Position numbers and translations under genes: made by a program. The notes under the pieces are model-generated. The model was not told where the DNA came from and did not search any database. It saw only the letters and a list, made by a program, of their open reading frames with translations. Source: Escherichia coli (lineage in GTDB: Bacteria; Pseudomonadota; Gammaproteobacteria; Enterobacterales; Enterobacteriaceae). Taken from it: a stretch of 64,000 nucleotides of DNA. Location of the stretch: the NCBI RefSeq assembly GCF_024700885.2, contig NZ_CP117016.1; one strand, 5' to 3'. Positions 2,154-40,087 of the stretch are shown one piece after another. The number at the start of each line of letters is the position of its first letter. Within the stretch, counting starts at the first letter, position 1.

Positions 2154-3383
2154 ATGTCTAATATTTGGTCAAAAGAAGAAACTCTGTGGAGTTTCGCGCT
2201 CTACGGCACAGCCGTTGGTGCAGGCACGCTCTTCCTTCCTATTCAGTTAGGTTCGGCAGGGGCTGTGGTCCTGTTTATTACTGCTCTGGTCGCCTGGCCT
2301 TTAACATATTGGCCACATAAAGCCTTATGCCAGTTCATCCTCTCATCAAAAACATCAGCAGGTGAAGGGATAACGGGCGCGGTAACACACTACTATGGCA
2401 AGAAGATTGGTAATCTGATTACCACGCTGTACTTCATCGCCTTTTTTGTCGTCGTGTTGATATATGCCGTGGCAATTACCAACTCACTTACGGAACAGCT
2501 GGCAAAGCATATGGTTATTGATCTTCGCATCCGTATGTTGGTGAGTCTGGGTGTTGTATTAATCCTGAATCTCATTTTTCTAATGGGACGCCATGCCACT
2601 ATTCGGGTAATGGGATTTTTGGTATTCCCATTGATTGCCTATTTCTTATTTCTTTCTATTTACCTGGTCGGTAGTTGGCAACCTGATCTATTAACTACCC
2701 AGGTAGAGTTCAATCAGAATACCCTTCACCAGATATGGATATCGATTCCCGTGATGGTTTTCGCCTTTAGCCATACGCCCATTATTTCTACGTTTGCCAT
2801 AGACAGACGTGAAAAATATGGCGAACATGCTATGGATAAATGCAAAAAAATTATGAAAGTCGCTTATCTCATCATCTGCATAAGTGTACTGTTCTTTGTC
2901 TTTAGCTGCCTGCTTTCTATTCCACCTTCGTATATTGAAGCGGCTAAAGAAGAAGGGGTTACCATTTTATCGGCGCTTTCTATGCTGCCGAACGCCCCAG
3001 CATGGTTGTCAATTTCCGGGATTATTGTCGCAGTCGTTGCGATGTCGAAATCATTCCTGGGTACGTACTTTGGCGTTATTGAAGGTGCCACGGAGGTCGT
3101 CAAAACAACACTGCAGCAGGTTGGTGTAAAGAAAAGTCGTGCATTTAACCGCGCACTATCAATTATGTTGGTATCGCTGATTACCTTCATTGTTTGTTGC
3201 ATTAACCCGAACGCGATATCGATGATTTACGCGATCAGCGGCCCGCTCATTGCCATGATACTTTTCATCATGCCTACGCTGTCAACATATCTCATCCCGG
3301 CGCTTAAACCCTGGCGTTCCATCGGAAATCTGATTACGCTGATCGTGGGTGTCCTGTGCGTATCGGTAATGTTCTTTAGCTAA
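2154..3383 (+). CDS. yqeG: multi-pass membrane transporter (amino-acid permease-like)
   Basis: 409-aa highly hydrophobic ORF with many predicted transmembrane segments; position after yqeF matches K-12 order. Confidence 0.85.
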   Translation: MSNIWSKEETLWSFALYGTAVGAGTLFLPIQLGSAGAVVLFITALVAWPLTYWPHKALCQFILSSKTSAGEGITGAVTHYYGKKIGNLITTLYFIAFFVVVLIYAVAITNSLTEQLAKHMVIDLRIRMLVSLGVVLILNLIFLMGRHATIRVMGFLVFPLIAYFLFLSIYLVGSWQPDLLTTQVEFNQNTLHQIWISIPVMVFAFSHTPIISTFAIDRREKYGEHAMDKCKKIMKVAYLIICISVLFFVFSCLLSIPPSYIEAAKEEGVTILSALSMLPNAPAWLSISGIIVAVVAMSKSFLGTYFGVIEGATEVVKTTLQQVGVKKSRAFNRALSIMLVSLITFIVCCINPNAISMIYAISGPLIAMILFIMPTLSTYLIPALKPWRSIGNLITLIVGVLCVSVMFFS

Positions 3384-3393
3384 TATCCATTGT

Positions 3394-3436
3394 GAATGGT
3401 TCAAAATTGCTACAATTTTGAACCATTCCAGTTTTC
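3394..3436 (+). terminator. rho-independent terminator after yqeG
   Basis: Perfect 16-bp inverted repeat GAATGGTTCAAAATTG / CAATTTTGAACCATTC with a 3-nt loop, followed by a T-rich tract. Confidence 0.6.
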
Positions 3437-3842
3437 ATAATGTTCATTTGTTATAATTCCGCTCTATCACTTCTCTCGTCATATCCTAGTATTATCAGTT
3501 AGTTAAACACACAAAGAGATCTGAACATCTTAAATAAGACTATTTAAGATGCATAACTTAGATTCGCAAGATATCTTCTGGTCATTCAAAAACAATTTGC
3601 GATATAGATATTCTCATACCATGAGATAGTTATCTGAACCACCATCAACCAGGTAAGATTAAATCAGTGAAACATAATCATATTTAATAACGAGAAATGC
3701 ATTTTTAAATGCTTTACTCAGAATTATAGCAAATACAGATTAATCGCAATTTTTCCCAGCAAAATTACAAAATCATGGTGTATTGACATCATCAATAACC
3801 AATGAAATTATGCAATTATATACGGATAGGGAGGTTCTTAAC

Positions 3843-4475
3843 ATGGGGCTTTGTAGTCGTTATAAAAGTCTTACATGCAATAGTTGCTCAATGCATTGCC
3901 AAATAATGCCAGAAGAGTCACCGCGTTTGCAGTATTGCGCAAACTCGTGTTTTTGTATGTGGCCCGAAGAAAGTTCATATTTTAATCGTGGTGTGGTGGA
4001 AGGTATCTTAACAAAAAACCACAATGCGAGATTAAGCGGATATATTTTTGTCGATTTTTCAGTAAGTTTTTTACGTCTATTCCTTGAAAAAGACTGGATT
4101 GACTATCTTGCAAGTACTGACATGGGGATTGTTTTAGTCAGCGACCGAAATATGCAATCGTTAGCTAACTACTGGCGAAAACACAACTCTGCAATATCTG
4201 CTGTCATATATAATGATGATGGTCTTGATGTTGCCAATGAAAAGATCAGACAACTATTTATTGGTCGTTATTTATCATTTACCAGAGGGAACACATTAAC
4301 TCAGATGGAATTCACCATAATGGGATATATGGTTTCTGGTTATAATCCATATCAGATTGCTGAAGTTCTGGATATGGATATCCGTAGCATCTACGCGTAC
4401 AAGCAACGAATCGAAAAGAGAATGGGTGGTAAAATAAACGAGTTATTTATTCGTTCACATTCGGTCCAACATTGA
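3843..4475 (+). CDS. yqeH: LuxR-family transcriptional regulator (ETT2-island remnant)
   Basis: ORF-track ORF 3783..4475 begins at TTG; the ATG at 3843 (MGLCSRYKSL...) gives 210 aa; C-terminal helix-turn-helix region of LuxR/GerE type (NTLTQMEFTIMGYMVSGYNPYQIAEVLDMDIRSIYAYKQRIEKRM); AT-rich codon usage. Confidence 0.8.
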   Translation: MGLCSRYKSLTCNSCSMHCQIMPEESPRLQYCANSCFCMWPEESSYFNRGVVEGILTKNHNARLSGYIFVDFSVSFLRLFLEKDWIDYLASTDMGIVLVSDRNMQSLANYWRKHNSAISAVIYNDDGLDVANEKIRQLFIGRYLSFTRGNTLTQMEFTIMGYMVSGYNPYQIAEVLDMDIRSIYAYKQRIEKRMGGKINELFIRSHSVQH

Positions 4476-4508
4476 TACTCAATAATCTGCCAGAATCATA
4501 CTCTGCTT

Positions 4509-4540
4509 ATACGGGCATCTATTGAAATGCCCGTATTTTA
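4509..4540 (+). terminator. rho-independent terminator after yqeH
   Basis: 10-bp perfect stem ATACGGGCAT / ATGCCCGTAT with an 8-nt loop, followed by TTTTAC. Confidence 0.6.
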
Positions 4541-4688
4541 CAAATAAGCAGTACCCCCAAGAGTAAACAACATGGTATTTAAAACCATCACACGAAAAAT
4601 TCAGAAGCATTACGAAATATGAATTTACAAACAGGTGATGCTGCCAACTTACTGATTTAGTGTATGATGGTGTTTTTGAGGTGCTCCA

Positions 4689-4964
4689 GTGGCTTCTGTT
4701 TCTATCAGCTGTCCCTCCTGTTCAGCTACTGACGGGGTGGTGCGTAACGGCAAAAGCACCGCCGGACATCAGCGCTATCTCTGCTCTCACTGCCGTAAAA
4801 CATGGCAACTGCAGTTCACTTACACCGCTTCTCAACCCGGTACGCACCAGAAAATCATTGATATGGCCATGAATGGCGTTGGATGCCGGGCAACTGCCCG
4901 CATTATGGGCGTTGGCCTCAACACGATTTTACGTCACTTAAAAAACTCAGGCCGCAGTCGGTAA
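4689..4964 (+). CDS. insA: IS1 InsA (transposition repressor)
   Basis: 91-aa [40 protein letters not shown]... recognised as IS1 InsA; GTG start. Confidence 0.95.
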
Positions 4965-37840: not shown

Positions 37841-39289
37841 ATGAGCGCCATAGATTCCCAACTTCCCTCATCTTCAGGGCAAGATCGCCCAACTGATGAG
37901 GTTGACCGCATATTATCACCAGGAAAGCTGATCATACTCGGTCTGCAACACGTCCTTGTCATGTACGCAGGTGCAGTCGCTGTTCCTCTTATGATTGGTG
38001 ACCGACTGGGCCTCTCAAAAGAAGCTATTGCGATGCTCATTAGCTCGGATCTCTTTTGCTGCGGGATCGTCACATTATTGCAATGTATCGGTATCGGCCG
38101 CTTTATGGGGATCCGCCTGCCGGTGATTATGTCGGTGACCTTCGCCGCTGTAACACCAATGATAGCCATTGGGATGAACCCGGATATCGGCCTGCTGGGG
38201 ATATTCGGTGCCACTATCGCCGCGGGTTTTATCACCACATTATTAGCGCCACTTATCGGTCGCTTGATGCCTTTATTCCCGCCACTGGTTACCGGTGTGG
38301 TTATTACTTCTATCGGACTTAGCATCATTCAGGTGGGTATTGACTGGGCCGCAGGAGGTAAAGGGAATCCGCAATATGGTAATCCCGTTTATTTAGGTAT
38401 CTCCTTTGCCGTCTTAATTTTTATCTTGCTCATTACTCGCTATGCGAAAGGATTTATGTCCAACGTCGCCGTATTACTGGGGATTGTATTTGGCTTTTTA
38501 CTTTCGTGGATGATGAATGAAGTCAATTTATCCGGGCTACATGATGCTTCATGGTTTGCGATTGTCACGCCGATGTCATTTGGTATGCCGATTTTCGATC
38601 CCGTTTCCATTCTGACCATGACTGCCGTGTTAATCATCGTGTTTATCGAGTCGATGGGGATGTTCCTGGCACTGGGTGAAATAGTCGGTCGTAAACTCTC
38701 TTCACACGATATTATTCGCGGGCTGCGTGTCGATGGCGTAGGGACAATGATAGGCGGAACGTTTAACAGCTTCCCCCACACGTCATTTTCACAAAACGTT
38801 GGCCTGGTTAGCGTGACGCGCGTTCATAGCCGCTGGGTGTGTATTTCTTCGGGAATTATATTAATCCTGTTTGGCATGGTGCCAAAAATGGCGGTGCTGG
38901 TCGCCTCCATTCCGCAATTTGTGCTGGGCGGTGCTGGGCTGGTGATGTTCGGCATGGTACTGGCGACAGGAATTCGAATTCTGTCGCGCTGTAACTACAC
39001 CACCAACCGTTACAACCTCTATATTGTGGCGATCAGTCTCGGCGTTGGCATGACTCCGACGCTCTCTCACGATTTCTTTTCTAAGTTACCGGCCGTACTG
39101 CAACCGTTGCTGCATAGCGGCATTATGCTCGCAACCCTTAGCGCCGTTGTGCTGAACGTCTTCTTTAATGGCTATCAGCATCATGCTGATCTGGTGAAGG
39201 AATCCGTCTCTGATAAAGATTTAAAAGTCAGGACAGTACGTATGTGGCTTCTGATGCGCAAGCTGAAGAAAAATGAGCATGGAGAATAA
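37841..39289 (+). CDS. uacT: uric acid permease (NCS2/NAT family)
   Basis: 482 aa from the ATG at 37841 (MSAIDSQLPSS...) with AAAGGAG upstream; ORF-track extension from 37712 rejected. Confidence 0.85.
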   Translation: MSAIDSQLPSSSGQDRPTDEVDRILSPGKLIILGLQHVLVMYAGAVAVPLMIGDRLGLSKEAIAMLISSDLFCCGIVTLLQCIGIGRFMGIRLPVIMSVTFAAVTPMIAIGMNPDIGLLGIFGATIAAGFITTLLAPLIGRLMPLFPPLVTGVVITSIGLSIIQVGIDWAAGGKGNPQYGNPVYLGISFAVLIFILLITRYAKGFMSNVAVLLGIVFGFLLSWMMNEVNLSGLHDASWFAIVTPMSFGMPIFDPVSILTMTAVLIIVFIESMGMFLALGEIVGRKLSSHDIIRGLRVDGVGTMIGGTFNSFPHTSFSQNVGLVSVTRVHSRWVCISSGIILILFGMVPKMAVLVASIPQFVLGGAGLVMFGMVLATGIRILSRCNYTTNRYNLYIVAISLGVGMTPTLSHDFFSKLPAVLQPLLHSGIMLATLSAVVLNVFFNGYQHHADLVKESVSDKDLKVRTVRMWLLMRKLKKNEHGE

Positions 39290-39290
39290 T

Positions 39291-39416
39291 ATGAATCTTT
39301 TAATGCGCGCTATATTCAGTCTGTTGTTGCTTTTTACTCTCTCTATTCCTGTCATTTCTGACTGTGTTGCAATGGCCATTGAAAGTCGCTTCAAATATAT
39401 GATGCTGCTTTTTTAA
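39291..39416 (+). CDS. yqfG: small hydrophobic protein, 41 aa (MNLLMRAIFSLLLLFTLSIPVISDCVAMAIESRFKYMMLLF)
   Basis: Not in the ORF track (<60 aa); GGAG about 6 nt upstream; K-12 has a small gene yqfG near idi (from memory). Confidence 0.45.
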   Translation: MNLLMRAIFSLLLLFTLSIPVISDCVAMAIESRFKYMMLLF

Positions 39417-39538
39417 ATGGTTTTTACCTGTCGACATCCGCTCAAAACGGGCGGTTGTCGATAAACGCTCACTTGGTTAATCATTTCACTCTTCAATTAT
39501 CTATAATGATGAGTGATTAGAATTACATGTGAGAAATT

Positions 39539-40087
39539 ATGCAAACGGAACACGTCATTTTATTGAATGCACAGGGAGTTCCCACGGGTACGCTGGAAAA
39601 GTATGCCGCACACACGGCAGACACTCTCTTACATCTCGCGTTCTCCAGTTGGCTGTTTAATGCCAAAGGGCAATTATTAGTTACCCGCCGCGCACTGAGC
39701 AAAAAAGCATGGCCTGGCGTGTGGACTAACTCGGTTTGTGGGCACCCACAACTGGGAGAAAGCAACGAAGACGCAGTGATCCGCCGTTGCCGTTATGAGC
39801 TTGGCGTGGAAATTACGCCTCCTGAATCTATCTATCCTGACTTTCGCTACCGCGCCACCGATCCGAATGGCATTGTGGAAAATGAAGTGTGTCCGGTATT
39901 TGCCGCACGCACGACCAGTGCGTTACAGATCAATGATGATGAAGTGATGGATTATCAATGGTGTGATTTAGCAGATGTATTACACGGTATTGATGCCACA
40001 CCGTGGGCGTTCAGTCCGTGGATGGTGATGCAGGCAGCCAATAGTGAAGCAAGAAAATTGTTGTCTGCTTTCGCGCAGCACAATTAA
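39539..40087 (+). CDS. idi: isopentenyl-diphosphate delta-isomerase
   Basis: 182-aa ORF of the Nudix-fold IPP isomerase type. Confidence 0.9.

What the first reader, a model, noticed from the sequence alone, without database searches (positions are those of the whole stretch)
39291..39416. Unlisted 41-codon ORF starting 2 nt after the uacT stop
It encodes MNLLMRAIFSLLLLFTLSIPVISDCVAMAIESRFKYMMLLF, with a hydrophobic N-terminal half and a GGAG ribosome-binding site. It is too short for the ORF track and may be a small membrane protein (K-12 yqfG-like).
Basis: partly seen in the sequence, partly recalled or inferred. Interest (0 to 1): 0.35.

Follow-up and report, generated by a model that had tools for sequence, protein, structure and literature searches.

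The report
Known small membrane protein gene yqfG
The 41-codon reading frame right after the urate transporter gene uacT is the already annotated E. coli gene yqfG, a real small membrane protein of unknown function; it is ordinary as a discovery, but in every relative I found it stays attached to uacT.

Summary
An ATG at 39291 opens a 41-codon frame ending at 39416. It lies one base after the uacT stop codon (TAA 39287-39289), and a GGAG (39281-39284) sits six bases upstream. It is not new. It coincides base for base with the RefSeq CDS yqfG (WP_001050745.1) and differs from K-12 b4684 at one residue (L3F). It is present in 5356 of 5426 complete E. coli genomes. The gene is under protein-level selection: the frame is open in all 18 distinct orthologues, variation falls mainly on third codon positions, and dN/dS is 0.03-0.31. 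Published work shows YqfG is a membrane-integrated substrate of the intramembrane protease RseP; its function is unknown. What I add is that orthologues exist beyond Escherichia, in Citrobacter, Klebsiella, Kluyvera and unassigned metagenome contigs. All of them lie directly after uacT, while the downstream neighbour varies. A stable hairpin closes the uacT-yqfG unit in the lineages examined. I therefore infer that YqfG is made by translational coupling with UacT and probably acts on or beside it. An AlphaFold fusion test gave no support for docking. Novelty: already known. Interest: low.

The parts
37841..39289 (+). uacT (ygfU), the urate/H+ symporter gene of 482 aa. It is the upstream partner gene, and its last codons contain the ribosome-binding site of yqfG.
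   Evidence: RefSeq annotation of the identical strain and of K-12. ORF and translation. Xan_ur_permease Pfam family on the orthologues.
39281..39284 (+). GGAG Shine-Dalgarno-like motif six bases before the ATG, inside the codons for the last two residues (Gly-Glu) of UacT.
   Evidence: Sequence. A purine-rich SD-like motif (GGAG, GGTG, AGGA, GGGA or GAGGAG) lies a few bases upstream of the ATG (about 5-9) in every orthologue.
39291..39416 (+). yqfG CDS, 41 codons plus TAA. It has an N-terminal Arg6 and a hydrophobic stretch at residues 7-19. Pro20 is invariant, followed by V-I-S (21-23). The most conserved block is at residues 26-34, with I-E-S-R-F at 30-34.
   Evidence: identity. (selection). 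(conservation profile). (AlphaFold: one helix, residues 3-40).
39429..39463 (+). Stable stem-loop 13 bases after the yqfG stop. It is the likely 3' boundary of the uacT-yqfG transcript. No U-tract follows it in Escherichia.
   Evidence: RNA fold of -24.1 kcal/mol, z = -3.9. A hairpin follows the stop in most orthologous lineages with unrelated sequences, and Kluyvera has a trailing T-run. Compensatory differences occur within Escherichia. Not called as a terminator by the scan. No Rfam family.
39413..39484 (-). yqfH, an annotated 23-aa protein on the opposite strand. It overlaps the yqfG stop by 4 nt and covers the hairpin.
   Evidence: RefSeq annotation. VanOrsdel et al. 2018, PMC6001520. Targeted mass spectrometry in PMC12529367. 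The frame is broken in other Escherichia.
39455..39484 (+). Published constitutive sigma-70 promoter assigned to idi (TTGTCG, 18 nt, AATCAT). It implies that idi has its own promoter downstream of yqfG.
   Evidence: PMC3946193 table row 'yqfG > idi TTGTCG-18-AATCAT'. Located in the sequence. Not found by the consensus scan.
39539..40087 (+). idi, isopentenyl-diphosphate isomerase. It is the downstream neighbour in Escherichia, Citrobacter and Klebsiella, but not in Kluyvera or in the L103-L105 lineage.

Best explanation
The ORF is yqfG (K-12 b4684), a genuine protein-coding gene for a 41-residue, single-helix inner-membrane protein. Shown here: it is the last cistron of a two-gene uacT-yqfG unit. 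Its ATG lies one base after the uacT stop, and its Shine-Dalgarno motif is embedded in the last uacT codons. A stable hairpin follows it, and idi has a published promoter of its own. Inferred: ribosomes finishing UacT re-initiate on yqfG, so YqfG is made only when and where UacT is made. Known from the literature: the protein inserts in the membrane, with a predicted N-in/C-out orientation, and is cleaved within its transmembrane helix by the site-2 protease RseP. That cleavage would limit its lifetime. Inferred with roughly 35-40% confidence: YqfG acts on or next to UacT, as operon-encoded small subunits such as CydX or KdpF do with their partners. The conserved C-terminal block (IESRF, near or beyond the periplasmic membrane surface) would be the functional part, and the variable hydrophobic N-terminal half mainly an anchor. 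The confidence value given here refers to the identity, coding status and operon anatomy, not to the UacT-partner function.
For: Identity. The coordinates coincide with RefSeq yqfG / WP_001050745.1, and 40 of 41 residues match K-12 b4684. The exact sequence is named YqfG on at least 1000 contigs. The region is present at 95% identity or more in 5356 of 5426 complete E. coli genomes and is annotated yqfG in all 39 full-length rows sampled.

Coding. There are 0 stops in the frame in 18 distinct orthologues, against 12-68 summed stops in the other five frames. Within Escherichia, variable columns by codon position are 5/3/20 (binomial p = 4e-5). dN/dS is 0.03-0.31. Length is held at 38-41 aa down to 29% identity. 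S32-R33-F34, P20 and L14 are invariant.

Linkage to uacT. The start is 2 nt after the uacT stop in Escherichia, Citrobacter, Klebsiella and contigs L083, L085 and L106. It is 4 nt after in L103-L105 and 66 nt after, with its own AGGA, in Kluyvera. The downstream neighbour differs: idi, a 460-aa ORF in Kluyvera, or a sigma-54 activator on the other strand. E. coli strains lacking yqfG lost it together with uacT through IS1-associated deletions that leave idi.

Unit boundary. A hairpin follows the stop, and idi has a published promoter.

Membrane protein and RseP substrate. PMC4597795, PMC10470546 Table 1 'Class I' and PMC8144685. AlphaFold predicts one continuous helix, mean pLDDT 85.6.
Against: No experiment links YqfG to UacT, and no paper found in the library connects them. 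An AlphaFold2 run of UacT joined to YqfG by a 30-residue linker gave lower confidence for the YqfG segment (62/72/64/50/42 per 10 residues) than YqfG alone (89/94/89/74/55). That is no support for docking, though the paired alignment held only 10 sequences and no contact map was available. Conserved positions do not form one helical face (permutation p = 0.4-0.8). C. freundii, Pluralibacter gergoviae and Serratia oryzae have uacT orthologues (81-83% identity) with no yqfG behind them, so UacT does not strictly need it. yqfG evolves about ten times faster than uacT (omega 0.14-0.31 against 0.017-0.03). In two genomes uacT looks disrupted while yqfG is intact. Evidence that the native protein accumulates (Hemm et al. 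2008) could not be read here. The RseP work used tagged, plasmid-expressed constructs.
Confidence: 0.9

Rival explanations
1. YqfG works independently of UacT. It would be a free small membrane protein whose relevant interaction is with RseP or another target, for example as a signal-peptide-like competing substrate or a regulator removed by RseP. On this reading its position behind uacT is only a convenient expression site.
For: The only experimental facts concern RseP: cleavage in vivo by chromosomal RseP and in vitro by the purified enzyme. Pro20 inside the hydrophobic segment is invariant, and helix-destabilising residues favour RseP cleavage. uacT orthologues exist without yqfG. AlphaFold gave no docking signal.
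Against: The family was found only behind uacT, in at least four different genomic contexts and in each of the 21 loci examined. The one-base stop-start junction is kept across genera. RseP is universal in these bacteria, whereas yqfG follows the patchy distribution of this uacT locus.
Confidence: 0.3
2. YqfG is a precursor. Residues 1-23 would be a Sec-type signal peptide cut by signal peptidase I after Ser23 (P-V-I-S | D-C). This would release the conserved 18-residue C-terminal peptide (DCVAMAIESRFKYMMLLF) at the periplasmic face, and RseP would then clear the leftover signal peptide.
For: The layout fits the n/h/c plan of signal peptides in all 26 orthologues. Arg6 is present in at least 90%. 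The hydrophobic core at residues 7-19 is variable in sequence. Pro20 is invariant. Small residues sit at positions 21 (V/A) and 23 (S), and Kluyvera has V-Q-A one position later. The best-conserved block lies after the putative cut. The RseP authors chose YqfG because it resembles signal peptides, which are known RseP substrates.
Against: This was judged by eye only, since no signal-peptide predictor was available. The hydrophobic stretch continues past the site (C25-I30), and the literature treats residues from about 8 to about 29 as one transmembrane helix with a periplasmic tail of about 12 aa. AlphaFold gives one unbroken helix. Purified RseP cleaves full-length YqfG without signal peptidase. 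No RseP-independent extra band was reported for HA-MBP-YqfG, unlike for several other small proteins.
Confidence: 0.15
3. The ORF serves idi, as a leader or regulatory upstream ORF or as a partner of the isomerase, rather than uacT.
For: yqfG and idi are adjacent in Escherichia, Citrobacter and Klebsiella. C. freundii lacks both.
Against: A strong hairpin and a published idi promoter lie between them. Kluyvera and the L103-L105 lineage have uacT-yqfG without idi downstream. IS1 deletions leave idi without yqfG. Idi is a soluble enzyme.
Confidence: 0.04
4. The ORF is translated only as a by-product of ribosomes terminating on uacT, or is not translated at all, and the peptide has no function.
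For: The ORF is short. A 41-codon frame is common by chance in this window. There is no Pfam or NCBIfam model. Some disrupted alleles exist in E. coli.
Against: Frame, length and an invariant SRF motif are kept down to 29% identity. dN/dS is well below 1 and variation is biased to third positions. In-frame indels are seen in E. coli alleles (+2, +4, -3, -4 aa). The tagged protein is membrane-integrated and processed.
Confidence: 0.03
5. It is a small lipoprotein (Cys25 as the lipidated residue) or a type I toxin-like hydrophobic peptide.
For: There is a Cys shortly after a hydrophobic N-terminus. The size and hydrophobicity resemble entericidins or Hok-type peptides.
Against: I-S-D-C does not fit the lipobox (Asp at -1), and Cys25 is Gly, Ser or Leu in other genera. 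No promoter-like site or known antisense RNA family lies at the locus. Overexpression in the RseP studies was not reported as toxic, unlike HokB.
Confidence: 0.01

Closest known systems
YqfG of E. coli K-12 (b4684, UniProt YQFG_ECOLI; reported as a small membrane protein by Hemm et al. 2008; RseP substrate in Akiyama et al. 2015, PMC4597795, and in PMC10470546)
   Same: Same gene. It has the same position between uacT and idi, the same length, 40 of 41 residues identical, and 100% identity to the RefSeq multispecies protein WP_001050745.1.
   Different: One substitution (Leu3 here, Phe3 in K-12). Both alleles are very common.
CydX (37 aa, cydABX) and KdpF (29 aa, kdpFABC): operon-encoded single-helix subunits of membrane complexes
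   Same: It is a single hydrophobic helix encoded in the same transcription unit as a large membrane protein. The synteny is conserved across genera. The hydrophobic segment varies freely, and a few positions are fixed (comparators described in PMC12648545).
   Different: Association with the partner is proven for CydX and KdpF, by co-purification and cryo-EM. It is untested for YqfG, and the AlphaFold fusion test was unsupportive. UacT is a secondary transporter of the NAT/NCS2 family, for which I know of no small subunit. There is no sequence similarity to either protein.
MgtR, MgtS, AcrZ and MgrB: small membrane proteins that modulate the stability or activity of a transporter or sensor
   Same: Size and single-pass topology are similar. 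As with MgrB, a short conserved extramembrane tail could carry the specificity. There is a link to regulated proteolysis (MgtR with FtsH; YqfG with RseP).
   Different: Those proteins have defined targets and stress-regulated promoters. YqfG has no known target and no identified promoter of its own, and it appears to depend on uacT translation.
Sec signal peptides, the established class of RseP substrates
   Same: It has the n/h/c layout, with a helix-breaking Pro and small residues at the -3/-1-like positions. It is cleaved by RseP.
   Different: It is a free-standing 41-aa gene product, not the N-terminus of a larger exported protein. Whether signal peptidase cuts it is unknown.

Membership tests
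YqfG (E. coli K-12 b4684 / RefSeq WP_001050745.1) | Full-length sequence identity to the named protein | tested here: met
   100% to WP_001050745.1 at the same coordinates. 40 of 41 residues identical to b4684. An exact-sequence look-up returns 'protein YqfG'.
YqfG (E. coli K-12 b4684 / RefSeq WP_001050745.1) | Locus: same strand as uacT, immediately after it, and upstream of idi-lysS-prfB | tested here: met
   Window ORFs and annotated regions of strain 118UI and MG1655.
YqfG (E. coli K-12 b4684 / RefSeq WP_001050745.1) | The protein is actually synthesised from the chromosome | not testable with these tools
   Hemm et al. 2008 is cited for this by PMC4597795, but the paper itself is not held. 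No ribosome-profiling supplement could be read. Indirect support comes from purifying selection.
RseP (site-2 protease) substrates | RseP-dependent cleavage within a type II transmembrane segment that has a small periplasmic part | not testable with these tools
   Shown for the K-12 allele in vivo and in vitro. This allele differs only at residue 3, which lies outside the region mutated in those studies (Ile8-Phe15).
Operon-encoded small subunit of a membrane transporter or oxidase (CydX/KdpF type) | Conserved co-location and co-orientation with the partner gene across lineages | tested here: met
   All 21 orthologous loci examined (18 distinct yqfG sequences) lie directly behind a 481-482-aa Xan_ur_permease gene. 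The downstream neighbour varies.
Operon-encoded small subunit of a membrane transporter or oxidase (CydX/KdpF type) | Physical association with the partner protein | tested here: inconclusive
   The AlphaFold2 linker fusion gave YqfG-segment pLDDT of 42-72, against 55-94 alone. There was no contact or PAE output, and only 10 paired sequences.
Operon-encoded small subunit of a membrane transporter or oxidase (CydX/KdpF type) | The partner's stability or activity depends on the small protein | not tested
   This needs genetics. uacT orthologues without yqfG exist, which argues against strict dependence.
Sec-type signal peptide (signal peptidase I substrate) | n-region with positive charge, h-region of 7-15 hydrophobic residues, and c-region with a helix breaker and small residues at -3 and -1 | tested here: met
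   Judged by inspection of alignment A2: R6, residues 7-19, P20, V/A21, S23 (Kluyvera V-Q-A). No predictor was run.
Sec-type signal peptide (signal peptidase I substrate) | Actual cleavage by signal peptidase | not testable with these tools
   The literature treats the protein as uncleaved type II. No direct test is reported.
Bacterial lipoprotein | Lipobox [LVI][ASTVI][GAS]-C with a conserved Cys | tested here: not met
   The sequence is I-S-D-C, with Asp at -1. Cys25 is replaced by Gly, Ser or Leu in Citrobacter, Klebsiella and Kluyvera.

The most novel reading that the evidence does not exclude
YqfG is a dedicated, translationally coupled partner of the urate transporter UacT. It would be a small subunit or modulator whose conserved periplasm-proximal IESRF block contacts the transporter and whose level is set by RseP proteolysis. 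To my knowledge that would be the first small-protein partner described for a NAT/NCS2 nucleobase transporter. A variant of this reading is that the active species is the 18-residue C-terminal peptide released by signal peptidase.
Probability: 0.35. Interest if true: 0.45.

Novelty: already known. Interest (0 to 1): 0.15.

Why it matters
As a finding it adds nothing to annotation. yqfG has been in the K-12 gene list for years and is called routinely by NCBI's pipeline. The modest value lies in the comparative result. A small protein of unknown function, so far used only as a model RseP substrate, turns out to be a family spread over several enterobacterial genera, and it is always fused in expression to the urate transporter gene. 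That gives a concrete and cheap hypothesis to test: does YqfG affect UacT stability or urate uptake, and does RseP tune this? It bears on the recently revived interest in anaerobic urate degradation by gut Enterobacteriaceae and in engineered urate-consuming E. coli, which overexpress UacT without yqfG.

Tried and rejected
1. Lipoprotein reading of 'ISDC'. Rejected because the lipobox is not met and the Cys is not conserved.

2. A conserved helical face as a sign of helix-helix packing. My first mental estimate suggested one. The proper computation with permutation shows none (p = 0.4-0.8).

3. AlphaFold2 of UacT-(GGGGS)6-YqfG against YqfG alone. There was no gain in confidence for YqfG and in fact a loss, so it gives no support for docking. 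The tool returns no contacts, so this remains inconclusive.

4. The antisense 57-aa ORF (39221-39394, minus strand) shares third codon positions with yqfG and could mimic the codon-position signal. Its frame carries stops in 8 of 18 orthologues, so it was rejected.

5. Upstream in-frame starts (39273, 39279). They are not conserved outside Escherichia, and Klebsiella has an in-frame stop 27 nt upstream with no ATG in between.

6. Pfam, NCBIfam, PDB and Rfam searches gave nothing significant. The Rfam hit scored 20 bits against a threshold of 100, and the PDB hits had E > 0.1.

7. Reading the primary paper (Hemm 2008), the follow-ups (Hemm 2010, EcoSal 2020) and the ribosome-profiling supplements. 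None is held.

8. The first single-sequence protein search suggested an Escherichia-only orphan. The exhaustive search and the profile search overturned that.

Presence or absence outside the listed taxa is therefore not settled.

Full report
**1. The observation**

The window was read at 39000-39800. The large ORF ending at 39289 is uacT, whose last codons are GGA GAA TAA. After one base (T, 39290) an ATG at 39291 opens a frame that runs to TAA at 39414-39416. GGAG lies at 39281-39284, six bases before the ATG.

The mechanical ORF list gives the frame as 39273..39416 (47 aa), because two further in-frame ATGs lie upstream inside uacT. The same list shows many meaningless ORFs of similar or greater length in this region. 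The ORF alone is therefore not evidence of a gene.

**2. What it is**

A megablast of 39100-39600 against 5,426 complete E. coli genomes found the region in 5,392 of them. The features under the match were uacT, yqfG, yqfH and idi. In a 100%-identical strain the RefSeq CDS 'yqfG, protein YqfG, WP_001050745.1' maps exactly onto 39291-39416. K-12 MG1655 carries b4684 yqfG at the same place, with one amino-acid difference, Phe3 instead of Leu3.

An exact look-up finds both alleles on at least 1000 contigs each. They are named 'protein YqfG' and 'Uncharacterized protein YqfG ... YQFG_ECOLI'. A tighter 140-nt query is present at 95% identity or more in 5,356 of 5,426 genomes. It is annotated yqfG in all 39 full-length rows of a spread sample.

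**3. Is it a real coding gene?**

A first protein search found only Escherichia and Shigella relatives. Three further steps found diverged orthologues:
- a look downstream of uacT in other genomes;
- an exhaustive phmmer search;
- a profile search.

The orthologues come from Citrobacter (sp. R56, enshiensis, amalonaticus, farmeri), Klebsiella, Kluyvera and unassigned metagenome contigs. They are 38-41 aa long and 29-59% identical.

- **Reading frame.** Across 18 distinct orthologous DNA sequences the yqfG frame has no stop. The other five frames have 12-68 stops in total. The antisense frame that shares third codon positions has stops in 8 of the 18.
- **Codon positions.** Within Escherichia, 28 columns vary, split 5/3/20 over codon positions 1/2/3 (binomial p = 4e-5).
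- **dN/dS.** Pairwise dN/dS is 0.03-0.31. For the same genome pairs, uacT gives 0.017-0.03 and idi 0.095. yqfG is therefore constrained, but less than its neighbours.
- **Allele variation.** E. coli alleles with indels are mostly in frame (+2, +4, -3, -4 residues). Truncated or rearranged alleles exist at low frequency.
- **Conserved residues.** L14, P20, S32, R33 and F34 are invariant. R6, L13, I19, S23, I30 and E31 are at least 90% conserved. The N-terminal hydrophobic half varies freely in sequence, and residues 26-34 are the best conserved.

There is no Pfam or NCBIfam model and no solved structure.

**4. What is published**

- YqfG is described as a small membrane protein of unknown function, predicted N-in/C-out, citing Hemm et al. 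2008.
- An HA-MBP-YqfG fusion is associated with the membrane. It is cut by RseP but not by the inactive E23Q mutant.
- Proline substitutions at Ile8-Phe15 change its cleavage by RseP loop mutants (PMC4597795).
- A later screen confirmed cleavage by chromosomally encoded RseP, with a small 3xFLAG tag, and in vitro with purified RseP. It placed YqfG in 'Class I' (PMC10470546).
- Its periplasmic part is put at about 12 residues (PMC8144685).
- A 2025 review of bacterial small membrane proteins does not mention it. No paper in the library links it to UacT.
- The primary paper and the ribosome-profiling supplements could not be read. Native expression therefore rests on citation and on the evolutionary evidence above.

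**5. Anatomy of the locus and what travels with what**

- **Position after uacT.** In every lineage the orthologue lies directly after a 481-482-aa Xan_ur_permease gene. The ATG is 2 nt after the stop in Escherichia, Citrobacter, Klebsiella and contigs L083, L085 and L106. It is 4 nt after in L103-L105. In Kluyvera it is 66 nt after, with its own AGGA.
- **Ribosome-binding site.** A purine-rich SD-like motif lies a few bases upstream of the ATG (about 5-9) in all of them, usually inside the last uacT codons.
- **Downstream neighbour.** This is not constant. It is idi in Escherichia, Citrobacter and Klebsiella. It is a 460-aa ORF in Kluyvera and a sigma-54 activator on the other strand in L103-L105.
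- **uacT without yqfG.** C. freundii, Pluralibacter and Serratia oryzae have uacT followed by something else and no yqfG.
- **Loss in E. coli.** The two E. coli genomes examined that lack yqfG carry an IS1 copy where the purine cluster, including uacT, should lie; the IS abuts yqfH or idi, which remain.
- **Unit boundary.** A strong hairpin lies 13 nt after the yqfG stop (39429-39463; -24.1 kcal/mol, z = -3.9). A comparable hairpin with unrelated sequence follows the stop in most of the other lineages, and in Kluyvera it is followed by a T-run. Within Escherichia its arms differ by compensating changes. idi has a published promoter in the spacer (TTGTCG-18-AATCAT, 39455-39484; PMC3946193).

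The unit is therefore uacT-yqfG. The constant companion of yqfG is uacT, not idi.

**6. How it most likely works**

- **Shown:** the identity, the coding constraint, the operon anatomy and the exclusive linkage to uacT.
- **From the literature:** membrane integration and RseP cleavage.
- **Inferred:** translation by termination-reinitiation coupling to uacT, and a function exerted on or beside UacT. The conserved C-terminal block would be the specific part, and RseP would limit the protein's lifetime.

I put the UacT-partner idea at about 35-40%.

Tests of it here were not supportive. AlphaFold2 predicts YqfG alone as one helix (residues 3-40, mean pLDDT 85.6). Fused to UacT through a 30-residue linker, using 10 paired and 34 UacT-only sequences, the YqfG segment dropped to pLDDT 42-72, while UacT itself folded well. 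Conserved positions do not line one helical face. Because some genomes have uacT without yqfG, any role is accessory.

**7. Rivals**

- **(a) A role independent of UacT, centred on RseP or another target (about 0.3).** It fits the only experimental facts but not the strict synteny.
- **(b) A precursor cut by signal peptidase after Ser23 (about 0.15).** The n/h/c layout, the invariant Pro20 and the small residues at positions 21 and 23 are kept in all 26 sequences, and the most conserved part lies after the site. However, the hydrophobic stretch continues past the site, purified RseP cuts the full-length protein, and no extra band was reported.
- **(c) A role for idi (about 0.04).** The hairpin, the idi promoter and the contexts lacking idi argue against it.
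- **(d) A functionless by-product of translation (about 0.03).** Conservation argues against it.
- **(e) A lipoprotein or toxin (about 0.01).** The lipobox is not met, and there is no antisense RNA or reported toxicity.

**8. Comparison with known systems**

It is a member of the YqfG family by every testable criterion. In what it may work like, the nearest models are CydX and KdpF (small helices encoded with their complexes) and MgtR, MgtS, AcrZ and MgrB (small modulators). Membership of that functional class is untested, because physical association is unknown.

**9. Verdict**

The feature is already known and interest is low (0.15). The one addition worth keeping is the cross-genus, context-independent coupling of yqfG to uacT, which turns 'function unknown' into a directly testable hypothesis.

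Noticed in passing
window 39413-39484 (- strand): yqfH (23 aa, annotated, and detected by tagging and targeted MS in the literature) is poorly conserved. Its frame has a stop and a 1-nt indel in the GTDB representative E. coli (L081). It has a premature stop, giving 17 aa, in cryptic-clade Escherichia, and is only 61% identical in E. albertii. Its variable codons coincide with the compensating arms of the hairpin, so the RNA structure rather than the peptide may be what is conserved.
   Followed up: partly
window 39429-39463; equivalent positions in L003, L018, L081, L086-L091, L093, L096, L099, L106, L006, L102: A stable stem-loop follows the yqfG stop in most lineages, with unrelated sequence in each. 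In Escherichia no U-tract follows it, so it is not a canonical intrinsic terminator. It has no Rfam family.
   Followed up: partly
window 39476-39538: The roughly 60 nt upstream of idi are almost invariant across Escherichia species and contain a perfect TATAAT (39502-39507). This is separate from the published TTGTCG-18-AATCAT promoter, so the real idi promoter or leader may be here.
   Followed up: no
L086 (Escherichia sp. E2593, GCA_004745145.1) 551-1999; L002 (strain GPEC1258) 1-490: uacT appears disrupted in both. In L086 it is only a 414-codon open stretch with no gene call. In L002 it is annotated as frameshifted. The adjacent yqfG is intact in both. These may be sequencing errors or recent pseudogenes.
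   Followed up: no
L107 (strain NH-21) 3248-3945; L108 (strain HUM3355) 3248-3945: An IS1 copy sits where the ygf/xdh purine-catabolism cluster, including uacT and yqfG, should lie, and abuts yqfH or idi. This accounts for these two E. coli genomes that lack yqfG.
   Followed up: partly
E. coli alleles P0001, P0005, P0014 (57-66 aa), P0018, P0024, P0039, P0040, P0046, P0108: There is allelic variety in E. coli. Stop-codon loss extends YqfG by 16-21 residues into the hairpin region (11-12 contigs each). In-frame duplications or deletions occur in the hydrophobic core. One allele is called from Met5 (37 aa, 110 contigs). One allele has a replaced N-terminus (34 aa, 33 contigs).
   Followed up: no
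L004 (C. freundii) 4455-4700; L007 (Pluralibacter) 4455-4520: In these genomes uacT is followed directly by a canonical terminator-like hairpin with a T-run. In C. freundii lysS comes next, with neither yqfG nor idi. The yqfG-idi segment therefore looks like an insertion or deletion unit relative to the uacT-lysS backbone.
   Followed up: partly
P0042: A 30-aa 'protein YqfG, partial' is attributed to Vibrio parahaemolyticus on a 216-bp contig and is 97% identical to the E. coli protein. It is almost certainly contamination of that assembly.
   Followed up: no
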